Below are positions 17,000-19,400 of a stretch of 64,000 nt of DNA, piece after piece. The number at the start of each line of letters is the position of its first letter. The stretch's first letter is position 1. A program made the position numbers and the translations under genes. The stretch comes from an uncultured Bacteriovoracaceae bacterium. Lineage in GTDB: Bacteria; Bdellovibrionota; UBA2428. A model generated the notes under the pieces. That model worked only from the letters and a program-made list of their open reading frames with translations. It was not told the DNA's origin and made no database searches. The stretch covers positions 46,364 through 110,363 of the forward strand of contig CAZWNW010000006.1 of the NCBI GenBank assembly GCA_964636255.1, written 5' to 3'.

Positions 17000-18619
17000 A
17001 TGTTTTCGTATATCGCACGATCTTTAGTCGTAATCAGCTTTCTCAACTTTGCTCTTTTGGCAATTGCGGCCGATCCGTCGCGGACCATGCGTTGGCCCTT
17101 TGACCAGCGGCAGATTCTTCTGGCTAAACCCGAGGGACAGAGTTTTCCCGATGATCTCACGGTTGCCCAAATTATGGATCTATTCGTCAAACGTGGTCGG
17201 GTTCGATGGGTGACGGCTCAAGGGGGTCGAAATCAACTGGTCCCTGTCGAAATTCCGAGTGACTTTCAATGGAGATCCGCTGACGCCGTCCGCAATCTTG
17301 GAACAAAATATCGCGTCGACGGAGCTTTACTTCTGTCGCAACAAAAATCGGAGGTTCAGCTGCACTGGTACTCTGCCGCCGATGGACAACCGCTTTTTTT
17401 CGAAACACTTTTTTTGCCCGAGCCCGGCAAAACCGTGGAAATGGCTGAGAAAAGAAAACAGCGCCTTAACGAATGGCTCTCGGACATATGGTCACGCATT
17501 CCTGGGCAAGGTTATCTTGTTCGGCGCGACAGCACTAGCGTGGAAATCGAGGGTGCAGACAAGGAAGGTTTTCGCATTGGGGACCAAGTTGAATTCGTTC
17601 GGCTCGAAGAAATCAAACGCCATCCTGTTTTAAAGACACTAGCAGAAATTAAATCCTCCATTGCGGGAGTTGGGGAGATCCTCACGCTCAACAGCCCCTT
17701 TTCGAAAGTTAAAATCATTTATGAATCCAACCTAGATCCCCTGCGCGAGGGAGACCGCTATCGCCTTATACGTCGAGAAACAAGTGCAGGAAGTATGGCG
17801 CAGCTGCCGGGTGGGCAAAGCGCCGGATCTCCGATTTCTCGTCCGCCTGAAACCACTGCGGATTCCGCAAAGTCTACTTCATCAACATTGGGAGGAATGC
17901 TTGGAATTCAGAGTCAGTTTTTAGATCTAAGCCTCCGTGGTGGTTATGGAAAACTGAGTCACAGTGAAGTGACGGCTGCTTCTGACACCTTAGAGATGTC
18001 TTCATCTGGTTATCTCTTGAAGGCCCATGCGGAACTTCTGATTTCTCGCGATTGGTTCGGATCTTTTGATTACGCATTTGGATTGCACAAGTTTTCCACT
18101 GTGCCGACCGAATACGGAGAGTCTTCGATCAGTTCTGGAATGAGGAATTTGATGATCTCAGCCGGCTATCGTTGGACAATCGACGAGGCCGCAGAAAGTT
18201 CCGGTGCGCTTCCCACCCAACTTTTGTTTTATGCTGGTTACCACAGGCTTTTGGGGAAAATGGCGCCGACAAGTTCTGATGTCGCTCCCTCACAAAAAAC
18301 CTACTCGGGACTATTTGCAGCAGTAGGACTGCGAATTCCCATGATGGATATGCTCGGACTCTCCCTGGACGTCACGCGCGCATTTGGAACATCGCTGGGG
18401 GAAGCGGTGGAAAGTTCCGGAGCAACATCGCAAAACGTGCTGTGGAGTTATGATTTCAGTTTGGCTTACGCCATGTCACGCACGCAAAACATAACACTCG
18501 GTTTTCACGGCATGAGCGCCTCGACAACTTTCAGCGGAGACGGAACGCGAACGACTTCAGCAGCACTAGCAGACCTACGCGCAGTCTACGGCTCACTCGG
18601 CTACCAAATGAAATTCTGA
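17000..18619 (+). CDS. Outer membrane protein: periplasmic N-terminal domains (FlgT-C-like segment) plus C-terminal beta-barrel
   Basis: Signal peptide; alternating beta strands after an S/T/G linker; C-terminal YQMKF BAM signal. Confidence 0.7.
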   Translation: MFSYIARSLVVISFLNFALLAIAADPSRTMRWPFDQRQILLAKPEGQSFPDDLTVAQIMDLFVKRGRVRWVTAQGGRNQLVPVEIPSDFQWRSADAVRNLGTKYRVDGALLLSQQKSEVQLHWYSAADGQPLFFETLFLPEPGKTVEMAEKRKQRLNEWLSDIWSRIPGQGYLVRRDSTSVEIEGADKEGFRIGDQVEFVRLEEIKRHPVLKTLAEIKSSIAGVGEILTLNSPFSKVKIIYESNLDPLREGDRYRLIRRETSAGSMAQLPGGQSAGSPISRPPETTADSAKSTSSTLGGMLGIQSQFLDLSLRGGYGKLSHSEVTAASDTLEMSSSGYLLKAHAELLISRDWFGSFDYAFGLHKFSTVPTEYGESSISSGMRNLMISAGYRWTIDEAAESSGALPTQLLFYAGYHRLLGKMAPTSSDVAPSQKTYSGLFAAVGLRIPMMDMLGLSLDVTRAFGTSLGEAVESSGATSQNVLWSYDFSLAYAMSRTQNITLGFHGMSASTTFSGDGTRTTSAALADLRAVYGSLGYQMKF

Positions 18620-18693
18620 GCGCTTTTCCGGAGGCAGGGGTTGGAACTCACGAGCCTGTGGGAAGCCTTTCGTAAATAAATCCCCTCATTGGA

Positions 18694-18794
18694 CACAATA
18701 CAGGGAAGCTCTTTATTAATTCCGTCGATGCCTCACCCCGGCGGCGTAGGCGTTTTACTCTTCTACATAAAACTTTGCCCGCCTTGGGGCAGTG
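18694..18794. repeat. Core copy X1 (101 nt, CAC...GTG), inverted relative to X2
   Basis: Blocks 18694-18703, 18730-18748, 18775-18794 are exact reverse complements of 19008-19017, 18962-18980, 18916-18935. Confidence 0.92.
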
Positions 18795-18915
18795 TCCAAT
18801 GAGGGGGAAAGGCTTCTCAAAGACATGGAGATTGCCATCTTGGTAATTTTGGAAACTTAGGAAATTTAGAAAACCTGAGTTCATTCACATAAGCTAGATA
18901 TTTATATCTCTGGAT

Positions 18916-19017
18916 CACTGCCCCAAGGCGGGCAATGGTGATTAAAGAAAAAAAATATACTTACGCCGCCGGGGTGAGGCTTTCACCGGGGTTCCTGAAG
19001 TGCATAGCTGTATTGTG
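18916..19017. repeat. Core copy X2 (102 nt, CAC...GTG)
   Basis: See X1; flanked by its own inverted repeat 18884-18918 / 19015-19049 (34/35 match). Confidence 0.92.
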
Positions 19018-19121
19018 ATCAAGAGATATAAATATCTAGCTTATGTGAAAGCACACAGCTGCCTCTATTCCCTTCCTAGACTGAAAGGGGACTCATCAGC
19101 TTTGTTTTTTACTAAAGTAAA

Positions 19122-19400
19122 TTACTTGAGGTTACGATCGAAGCGCGCCTTTTGGCGGTTAAACCAGTCGCGGAATTTGTCGTAATTTTCGTCAAGCTCG
19201 AGAAGATTATCAAGACTTAGATAGTCGGTGCGTGAAGTGACTTTTGCTTTGTCCTGATTGTAATAACTAAATTCATTTTGATTAAGTTCAACAGCTTCCA
19301 CCCAAGATTTGATCGCATCCTTTAACCACATGGGGACGTTCCGGAGGTCAGCCTCGCGGTTGTAGTTGATCAATTCCTGCTTGATGTCGTGTTGGTTCAT
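19122..19400 (-). CDS. Orphan 92-aa helical, AT-rich protein of unknown function
   Basis: Clean ORF downstream of suhB, no overlap with other genes, hand-counted lines 33-40% GC. Confidence 0.65.
   Translation of the reverse strand: MNQHDIKQELINYNREADLRNVPMWLKDAIKSWVEAVELNQNEFSYYNQDKAKVTSRTDYLSLDNLLELDENYDKFRDWFNRQKARFDRNLK

What the first reader, a model, noticed from the sequence alone, without database searches (positions are those of the whole stretch)
18631..19065. Unknown ~435-nt element built almost entirely of interlocking inverted repeats
Seen (reverse-complement pairs): A 18662-18671/18807-18816 (10/10); B 18682-18696/18792-18806 (15/15); F 18694-18703/19008-19017 (10/10); C 18730-18748/18962-18980 (19/19); D 18775-18794/18916-18935 (20/20); E 18884-18918/19015-19049 (34/35); outer closure 18631-18637+18656-18660 with 19054-19065 (12/12, 18-nt side branch). 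So two long hairpins (A+B and E) lie inside an outer stem, and their ~95-nt loops are complementary to each other through F, C, D. This density is far beyond chance and fits no terminator, REP, attC, CRISPR or riboswitch pattern I recognise. Inference: a novel structured ncRNA/ssDNA element or non-autonomous mobile element inserted between convergent genes.
Basis: partly seen in the sequence, partly recalled or inferred. Interest (0 to 1): 0.9.

Follow-up and report, generated by a model that had tools for sequence, protein, structure and literature searches.

The report
Two back-to-back hairpin repeat elements
The "interlocking" 435-nt structure is real, but it is two diverged copies of a non-coding hairpin repeat unit lying in opposite orientations, inserted where related bacteria have only a short gap; it is a new repeat family of an ordinary kind, not a new class of RNA or DNA device.

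Summary
The pattern resolves into two units. E1 (about 18638-18838, + strand) and E2 (about 19085-18845, - strand) each have a stem of about 41-44 bp around a core of about 100 nt. The two cores are homologous copies that share three identical boxes: F (10 nt), C (19 nt) and D (20 nt). The stems differ. Because the units point in opposite directions, their loops are complementary, and this produces all the "interlocking" and the CAC/GTG "quartet".

In Bdellovibrionota relatives with the same gene order, the gap between the OMP gene and the 92-aa gene is 2-114 nt. Here it is 502 nt, so about 420-455 nt is a lineage-specific insertion.

A spurious ORF across E1 has one database relative, P0082, on a different 223-kb contig. 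P0082 matches E1 collinearly in three reading frames, so a second non-coding copy with the same stems exists, at most about 90% identical.

Rfam, plasmids, phages, GTDB genomes, JGI metagenomes and viral contigs gave no match.

Best reading: a MITE/ERIC-like palindromic repeat family, two members tail to tail.

The parts
17000..18619 (+). Flanking gene: an OMP-like beta-barrel protein of 539 aa. It is not part of the element.
   Evidence: ORF. Weak hit to the autotransporter beta-domain. Orthologues at 35-59% identity with conserved synteny. The C-terminal ...YQMKF is intact.
18620..18637 (.). Native intergenic flank: GCGCTTTTCCGGAGGCAG.
   Evidence: CCGGAG(G)CAG also occurs in the 62-nt gap of relative L005. 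Homology with the paralogous copy P0082 stops at 18637/18638.
18638..18655 (+). 5' extension of E1 (GGGTTGGAACTCACGAGC).
   Evidence: Conserved in the paralogue: P0082 ...AREFQP allows up to 18/18 identical bases. It pairs only weakly with 18823-18838.
18656..18696 (+). 5' stem arm 'a' of E1. The outer part is 18656-18671, a 10-nt bulge is 18672-18681, and the inner part is 18682-18696 ending in CAC.
   Evidence: Inverted repeats I3 and I4, and the DNA fold. The paralogue carries the partner of the bulge, so this copy has a deletion of about 10 nt in its 3' arm.
18694..18794 (+). Core X1 (101 nt, CAC...GTG). It holds box F (18694-18703), box C (18730-18748) and box D (18775-18794), separated by variable spacers of 26 nt each.
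   Evidence: Alignment of X1 with the reverse complement of X2. C and D pair with each other (GGCGG:CCGCC and CCCC:GGGG) in the folds of both copies.
18792..18838 (+). 3' stem arm a' of E1 (18792-18822), plus a degenerate outer extension.
18839..18874 (.). Junction between the two units. It contains A-tracts with a period of about 10 nt and the degenerate outer part of the E2 arm.
   Evidence: Sequence; arm extension.
18875..18918 (-).
   Evidence: Inverted repeat I2 (44 nt, 91%); fold.
18916..19017 (-). Core X2 (102 nt), a homologue of X1 on the opposite strand. The boxes lie at F 19008-19017, C 18962-18980 and D 18916-18935.
   Evidence: The three boxes are 49/49 identical to those of X1. 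The spacers are only about half identical.
19015..19085 (-). 5' stem arm of E2 (e', 19015-19058, beginning CTGTG on the - strand), plus a degenerate outer extension that includes CTGCCTC (19059-19065).
   Evidence: The right-hand limit of the insertion is uncertain, lying somewhere in 19059-19101.
19122..19400 (-). Flanking gene: a conserved 92-aa protein of unknown function. It is not part of the element.
   Evidence: 56 homologues, nearly all 69-93% identical. They sit next to suhB in relatives that lack the element.

Best explanation
The locus holds two diverged members of one family of non-coding, hairpin-forming intergenic repeat units. They are MITE/ERIC/Correia-like in kind. They lie tail to tail and fill a gap between convergent genes that is short in relatives.

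Each unit has inverted arms of about 41-44 bp, perfect near the core and decaying outward. The arms enclose a core of about 100 nt that carries three conserved boxes: F, and C and D, which pair with each other. E1 reads on the + strand and E2 on the - strand. For that reason the two cores are complementary, and the four stem/core junctions give every combination of a or e with f or d' around CAC/GTG.

Shown: the decomposition into two units, the insertion relative to relatives, the non-coding nature, and at least one further copy of the E1 type elsewhere.

Inferred: the units spread by transposition in trans, or by a comparable copy mechanism. When transcribed, each sits in sense orientation in the 3' UTR of its neighbouring gene, E1 after the OMP gene and E2 after the 92-aa gene. 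There it would fold into a long hairpin that can end or stabilise the transcript and insulate the convergent genes from each other.
For: - **Two homologous units.** X1 and the reverse complement of X2 align collinearly over 101 and 102 nt. Boxes of 10, 19 and 20 nt are identical and are separated by spacers of equal length but different sequence. Each unit folds alone into a long hairpin (z-scores -5.3 and -8.0).
- **Insertion.** In relatives with the order asparaginase-suhB-92aa facing OMP-lptC, the gap is 62 nt (L005), 33 nt (L009), 114 nt (L026-L029) and 2 nt (L030), against 502 nt here. The 92-aa and OMP genes are intact.
- **A further copy.** phmmer of the 78-aa ORF over E1 against 1.84 billion representative proteins gave one hit, P0082 (E 5.8e-5). 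P0082 lies on a 223,165-bp contig in NCBI, whereas the window's contig is 202,507 bp. P0082 matches E1 collinearly in three different frames: MSLRSL at 18826-18809, residues 11-56 at 18806-18666, and residues 44-66 at 18706-18638 with 78% identity. At least 19 of 186 nt differ, and there is a 10-nt indel.
- **Non-coding.** Homology that crosses reading frames means conserved DNA rather than a protein.
- **Constraint on the boxes.** The boxes are better kept than the spacers in that comparison too. C is up to 19/19 and D up to 16/17. The spacers are at most 20/25 and 20/26.
- **No linked enzyme.** No recombinase, reverse transcriptase or HUH gene lies in the syntenic neighbourhood.
Against: - No target-site duplication is visible at any plausible boundary.
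- No parent IS or transposase is known.
- Only one further copy is documented, and only through a translated ORF. Its DNA and flanks could not be fetched.
- In MITE families the terminal repeats are normally the conserved part and the core drifts. Here E1 and E2 share the core boxes and differ in the arms. Arm homology is only weak: 16 of 1000 shuffles reach the observed score.
- The boxes are 49/49 identical between E1 and E2. The closer paralogue of E1 has at least one change in F and at least one in D. This hints at a local constraint on E1-E2 identity or complementarity.
- No copy was found in 106 kb of relatives' DNA or in the rest of the window, nor in any public collection searched.
Confidence: 0.6

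Rival explanations
1. One composite mobile unit. The whole stretch of about 420-455 bp (E1 + E2) would be a single foldback-type non-autonomous transposon. Its two ends would each carry the F-C-D boxes as inverted subterminal binding sites, and it would have inserted once, possibly into the loop of a small terminator hairpin (GAGGCAG/CTGCCTC).
For: The two units abut with no neutral spacer. The boxes are arranged symmetrically about the centre. GAGGCAG at 18631-18637 and CTGCCTC at 19059-19065 bracket the whole. The native remainder of about 54 nt is similar in size to the gaps of relatives.
Against: Homology with the paralogue ends at 18638, and it is not preceded by GAGGCAG. CCGGAG(G)CAG is native flank, also present in L005. 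Whether the paralogue has an E2 partner is unknown. No target duplication is visible.
Confidence: 0.13
2. A functional two-state nucleic-acid device. A read-through RNA, or single-stranded DNA, would toggle between two local hairpins (A/B and E) and a long-range fold (F, C, D). Alternatively the complementary loops would kiss. The complementarity itself would be under selection.
For: The two states are close in energy for the 502-nt RNA: -199.4 against -208.9 kcal/mol. The boxes are 49/49 identical between E1 and E2, although the closer E1 paralogue has changes in F and D. Perfect boxes next to spacers that are only about half identical are hard to obtain by gene conversion.
Against: The complementarity is fully accounted for by two inverted homologous copies. 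There is no Rfam match, no homologues to test covariation, and no promoter-like site for a dedicated transcript. Perfect helices of 20-44 bp are atypical of functional bacterial RNAs. The four-way form would need 26-52-nt linkers to span helices of up to 65 bp. The paralogue shows E1 is a repeat unit in its own right.
Confidence: 0.12
3. A DNA inversion or recombination site. The inverted cores X1 and X2, or the CAC/GTG junction 'quartet', would be substrates for a recombinase. That enzyme would invert 18795-18915, exchange stem partners and abolish both hairpins, giving a phase switch or a frozen recombination intermediate.
For: All four junction combinations (a|f, a|d', e|d', e|f) exist around a common CAC. 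Inverted 65-nt arms flank a 121-bp segment.
Against: The quartet is an automatic consequence of 'core flanked by its own palindrome, twice'. The four half-sites are unrelated in sequence apart from CAC. No invertase or integrase lies in the conserved neighbourhood. The paralogue keeps the a-X-a' arrangement. There is nothing to switch between two gene ends.
Confidence: 0.05
4. An assembly artefact, in the form of a chimeric or fold-back join in a metagenome-assembled contig.
For: The genome appears to be a MAG-type assembly, and no reads could be laid on it.
Against: Artefactual palindromes are exact copies of real neighbouring sequence. Here the two cores are diverged copies, the arms are unique, and an independent paralogue exists on another contig. 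Both flanking genes are intact.
Confidence: 0.03

Closest known systems
MITEs and MITE-like palindromic repeats of bacteria (Correia/NEMIS, ERIC/IRU, RUP, and the stem-loop sequence families of PMC2267715; reviews PMC2229807 and PMC10969869)
   Same: It is small (about 200-240 bp per unit), non-coding and intergenic. It has long inverted arms that fold into a hairpin. It is present in more than one copy, absent from the orthologous site of relatives, and sits in the 3' region of genes where it can act as an RNA hairpin.
   Different: No target-site duplication or parent IS has been seen. The arms differ between the two units while the core boxes are identical, which is the reverse of the usual pattern. 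Copy number is unknown. There is no sequence similarity to any described family.
BIMEs (clusters of REP / palindromic units in alternating orientation; PMC2817692)
   Same: Two different but related palindromic units lie side by side in opposite orientation between gene ends.
   Different: The units are 5-6 times longer than a REP (20-40 nt) and have a 100-nt asymmetric core. No RAYT gene was seen. High copy number has not been shown.
Elements that insert into hairpin loops or palindromes (IS1397/ISKpn1 into REP loops, IS110-family elements such as ISPpu9 into REPs (PMC12288879), group IIC introns at terminator stems). The first two examples and the last are from my own knowledge.
   Same: The architecture is nested, palindrome within palindrome. 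The C:D hairpin sits inside the a:a' or e:e' stems, and the whole may sit inside GAGGCAG/CTGCCTC.
   Different: The ~100-nt core X encodes nothing and matches no known IS end or intron. The paralogue shows that stem plus core move or duplicate together.
Integron attC sites
   Same: Both are imperfect hairpins with a variable central part, recognised as structure rather than as sequence.
   Different: There are no R''/R' core sites (RYYYAAC / GTTRRRY) at the stem base, where the junctions read CAC/GTG. There is no integrase and no cassette array.

Membership tests
MITE (miniature inverted-repeat transposable element) | Terminal inverted repeats | tested here: met
   The E1 arms are 18656-18696 and 18792-18822. 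The E2 arms are 18875-18918 and 19015-19058. Both pairs extend outward at lower identity.
MITE (miniature inverted-repeat transposable element) | Direct target-site duplication flanking the element | tested here: inconclusive
   No direct repeat is seen at boundaries 18637/18638, 18838/18845 or 19058-19101. The boundaries are only known to about 10-40 nt.
MITE (miniature inverted-repeat transposable element) | Multiple dispersed copies in the genome | tested here: inconclusive
   One further E1-type copy is inferred from P0082 on another contig.
MITE (miniature inverted-repeat transposable element) | No coding capacity | tested here: met
   The only ORFs are 78-79 aa with no Pfam hit. Homology to P0082 runs through three frames.
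MITE (miniature inverted-repeat transposable element) | A related autonomous IS with the same terminal repeats | not testable with these tools
   This needs the whole assembly. Nothing was found in plasmids, phages, GTDB genomes or metagenomes.
MITE (miniature inverted-repeat transposable element) | Presence/absence polymorphism (empty orthologous site) | tested here: met
   The gap is 2-114 nt in syntenic relatives against 502 nt here. However, the relatives are distant, with OMP identity of 59% or less.
REP/BIME | Imperfect palindromes of 20-40 nt | tested here: not met
   The units are about 170-240 nt with a 100-nt core.
REP/BIME | Units in alternating orientation within a cluster | tested here: met
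   E1 is on the + strand, E2 on the - strand, and they are adjacent.
REP/BIME | Copy number above about 100, and a RAYT transposase | not testable with these tools
Any Rfam RNA family | A score at or above the family's gathering threshold | tested here: not met
   There were no hits at gathering threshold in the whole window. At E up to 10 only noise appeared, with a best score of 19 bits against thresholds of 36-70.
Integron attC | R''/R' core sites (RYYYAAC...GTTRRRY) at the base of the hairpin | tested here: not met
   The stem/core junctions read ...GGACAC / GTGTCC... and ...GATCAC / GTGATC....
Inverton (invertible promoter switch) | Both orientations present in reads, and an invertase nearby | tested here: inconclusive
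   No recombinase lies in the conserved neighbourhood. Orientation could not be tested because no runs were found.

The most novel reading that the evidence does not exclude
The pairing between the two units is itself the function. On this reading the locus is a bistable RNA or ssDNA device between convergent genes. Two ~40-bp hairpins would display ~100-nt loops kept exactly complementary at three boxes (49/49). It could refold into a long-range F/C/D structure of similar energy, for example to sense read-through or collision of convergent transcription, or to serve as a substrate for inversion of the 121-bp centre.
Probability: 0.1. Interest if true: 0.75.

Novelty: new variant of a known kind. 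Interest (0 to 1): 0.35.

Why it matters
If the reading is right, this adds a previously undescribed family of palindromic intergenic repeats in an uncultured Bdellovibrionota lineage. The family has an unusual design, with conserved core boxes inside long arms that can be exchanged.

It is also a worked example for scans of this type. A spectacular "interlocking" or "Holliday-junction-like" repeat pattern can arise simply from two diverged copies of a hairpin element placed in opposite orientation.

The open point of real interest is why three boxes are perfectly conserved between units whose arms and spacers have diverged. They could be binding sites for an unknown mobilising protein, or for a host factor.

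Tried and rejected
Copy number, ends and a parent IS could therefore not be determined.

**Searches that found nothing**
- Sequencing runs for three different stretches of the window: none found. There is no read or RNA evidence.
- Box D in GTDB genome contigs: 4 single hits in unrelated taxa, with no neighbouring boxes, so they are chance.
- Box C in JGI metagenome contigs: 16 hits, all inside GC-rich coding sequence, so they are chance.
- Boxes C and D and the arm sequences of E1 and E2 in viral contigs: nothing.
- blastn of the element against plasmids and phages: no match.
- Rfam at gathering and permissive thresholds: nothing.
- Word-based protein search with the 78-aa ORF: nothing.
- nhmmer of E1 and E2 against 106 kb of relatives' loci and the rest of the window: nothing significant.
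- Exact look-up of the DNA encoding P0082: not on record.

**Ideas considered and rejected**
- Hammerhead ribozyme. A CUGAUGAG occurs on the - strand at about 19091-19098, but there is no GAAA core and no Rfam hit.
- Sigma-54 or sigma-70 promoter in the E1 5' extension. The spacing is wrong, and the scan finds none.
- Tn3-type 38-bp terminal repeat. This was only a remembered partial resemblance, and there was no blastn match to plasmids.
- attC. The core sites are absent.
- The 92-aa gene as cargo or partner of the element. It is conserved in relatives that lack the element.
- REP-like CACTGCC...GGCAGTG hairpins elsewhere in the window. None were found.
- Nucleotide-level reconstruction of the empty site from L005. 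The relatives are too diverged, and the boundaries stay uncertain by 10-40 nt.

Full report
**1. The observation**

- A/B: 18656-18696 with 18792-18822. The inner 15 bp are perfect and the outer 16 bp pair at 88%. A 10-nt bulge lies at 18672-18681.
- C/D: 18730-18794 with 18916-18980. This is 65 nt at 78%, containing perfect blocks of 19 and 20 nt.
- E: 18875-18918 with 19015-19058, 44 nt at 91%.
- F: 18694-18703 with 19008-19017, 10/10.
- Outer closure: GAGGCAG...CTGTG with CACAGCTGCCTC.

In 18631-19065, 198 of 435 bases lie in perfect inverted repeats of 10 nt or more. In 500 dinucleotide shuffles the mean is 1.6 and the maximum 44. No other 435-nt window of the 64 kb exceeds 28. Folding z-scores are -10.4 and -8.8.

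**2. Anatomy: two units, not one**

The stem arms and the long-range blocks abut at CAC/GTG, so the region can be written as a-[X]-a' ... e-[rcX]-e'.

X1 (18694-18794, + strand) and X2 (19017-18916, - strand) align collinearly over 101 and 102 nt. The order is:
- box F, CACAATACAG (10/10);
- a spacer of 26 or 27 nt, about half identical;
- box C, GCCTCACCCCGGCGGCGTA (19/19);
- a 26-nt spacer, about half identical;
- box D, TTGCCCGCCTTGGGGCAGTG (20/20).

C and D are themselves an imperfect inverted repeat (GGCGG:CCGCC and CCCC:GGGG). They pair in the folds of both copies.

Each unit folds alone into a long hairpin. The arms continue outward at lower identity, E1 over about 18640-18838 and E2 over about 18845-19085. 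The two units therefore abut.

Both 5' arms begin with CTGTG and end with CAC. Otherwise arm a and arm e are only weakly alike: 16 of 1000 shuffles reach the observed score.

- The complementarity of the two "loops" (F, C, D).
- The CTGTG part of the outer closure.
- The full set of four junction types around CAC (a|f, a|d', e|d', e|f).

A physical four-way junction in one strand is unlikely. The linkers of 26, 52 and 27 nt would have to bridge the far ends of helices up to 65 bp long.

**3. It is an insertion**

The 92-aa protein has 56 homologues, nearly all 69-93% identical, named by their sources as Bdellovibrionota MAG proteins. The OMP has orthologues at 35-59% identity on the same contigs.

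In every relative fetched with the gene order asparaginase-suhB-92aa facing OMP-lptC, the gap is short:
- L005: 62 nt
- L009: 33 nt
- L026-L029: 114 nt
- L030: 2 nt

These figures come, with sequences. Here the gap is 502 nt.

CCGGAG(G)CAG, immediately left of the element, also occurs in the L005 gap, so it is native flank. About 420-455 nt is extra. The relatives are too distant for base-level boundaries.

The 92-aa gene is therefore a conserved resident gene and not cargo.

**4. It is a repeat family and it is non-coding**

The spurious 78-aa ORF across E1 (18648-18884, - strand) has no Pfam hit and no word-based relatives. An exhaustive phmmer search against 1.84 billion representative proteins found one hit: P0082, 70 aa, E 5.8e-5. 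P0082 is a singleton from NCBI on a 223,165-bp contig. The window's contig is 202,507 bp.

tblastn shows that P0082 matches E1 collinearly in three reading frames:
- MSLRSL at 18826-18809, in the a' outer arm.
- Residues 11-56 at 18806-18666, covering D, spacer 2, C and spacer 1.
- Residues 44-66 at 18706-18638, 78% identical, covering F, arm a and the 18-nt 5' extension.

Homology that jumps frames is DNA homology and not protein homology. A second, diverged copy of E1 therefore exists elsewhere, with the same arms.
- At least 19 of 186 nt differ.
- It has 10 extra nt exactly where the window's E1 has its bulge.
- Its homology ends at 18637/18638.
- It is probably in the same assembly. Like the window's own OMP, its gene is not on record in the contig index.

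The boxes are better conserved than the spacers in this comparison as well. C is up to 19/19, D up to 16/17 and F up to 6/7. The spacers are at most 20/25 and 20/26.

**5. What it matches**

It matches nothing known.
- Rfam: no match.
- Plasmids and phages: no match.
- Box D in 185,579 GTDB genomes: chance hits only.
- Box C in JGI metagenomes: chance hits only.
- Viral contigs: nothing.
- 106 kb of relatives' DNA plus the rest of the window: nothing.

No recombinase, reverse transcriptase or HUH gene lies in the neighbourhood. The neighbours are recG, lptC, OMP, the 92-aa gene, suhB, an asparaginase gene, a CBS-domain gene and a sigma-54 activator gene, and this order is syntenic with relatives.

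**6. Mechanism**

My best-supported reading, at about 0.6, is two members of a MITE/ERIC/Correia-like family of hairpin repeats inserted tail to tail.

Established:
- the two-unit anatomy;
- the insertion;
- non-coding status;
- at least one paralogue.

Inferred:
- mobilisation in trans, with the boxes as likely protein-binding sites;
- an RNA-level effect.

On the RNA-level effect: E1 lies in sense in the 3' region of the OMP gene, and E2 lies in sense in the 3' region of the 92-aa gene. Each mRNA would therefore end in a hairpin of about 40 bp. On the - strand the E2 hairpin is followed by GUUUUCU. No classical intrinsic terminator is otherwise present in the gap.

Weaknesses of this reading:
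- no target duplication;
- no parent IS;
- copy number unknown;
- the arms differ while the core boxes are identical, the reverse of typical MITE families.

One observation keeps a more interesting rival alive. The boxes are 49/49 identical between E1 and E2, although the closer E1 paralogue has changes in F and D. For a read-through RNA, the two-hairpin and long-range folds are nearly equal in energy, at -199.4 and -208.9 kcal/mol.

I give these probabilities to the rivals:
- functional two-state device: about 0.12;
- single composite foldback element: 0.13;
- inversion or recombination site: 0.05;
- assembly artefact: 0.03.

**7. Limits**

- No sequencing run was found.

The decisive computation is a search of the whole assembly for E1, E2 and X. 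It could not be run.

**8. Verdict**

It is not a single exotic interlocked element. The novelty is a new variant of a known kind, and the interest is moderate.

Noticed in passing
window 19122-19400 (- strand): The 92-aa ORF is not an orphan. It is a very well conserved small protein, with 56 homologues that are nearly all 69-93% identical. It has no Pfam domain and is always found just downstream of suhB in Bdellovibrionota MAGs. Its function is unknown.
   Followed up: partly
window 18841-18878: The junction between the two units carries A/T-tracts spaced about 10 nt apart (AATTTTGGAAACTTAGGAAATTTAGAAAAC). This suggests intrinsically bent DNA. No IHF-consensus match was seen by eye.
   Followed up: no
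window 18672-18681 and 18806/18807: The window's E1 has a 10-nt bulge in its 5' arm. The paralogue inferred from P0082 carries the complementary 10 nt in its 3' arm. This copy has therefore suffered a deletion of about 10 nt.
   Followed up: yes
window 19091-19098 (- strand): A CUGAUGAG motif next to a small hairpin (19071-19090) resembles half of a hammerhead core. It lacks the GAAA element and has no Rfam hit, so it was judged to be chance.
   Followed up: partly
L026-L029, locus positions 13162-18259 in L026: Some relatives carry an extra block between lptC and recG that is absent from the window and from L005. It comprises an AhpC/redoxin gene and an ABC transporter operon.
   Followed up: no
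L032 10289-10739: In one relative the OMP gene is replaced downstream of the 92-aa gene by a same-strand glycosyl-hydrolase-like gene, after a gap of about 450 nt. That gap shows no similarity to the element.
   Followed up: partly
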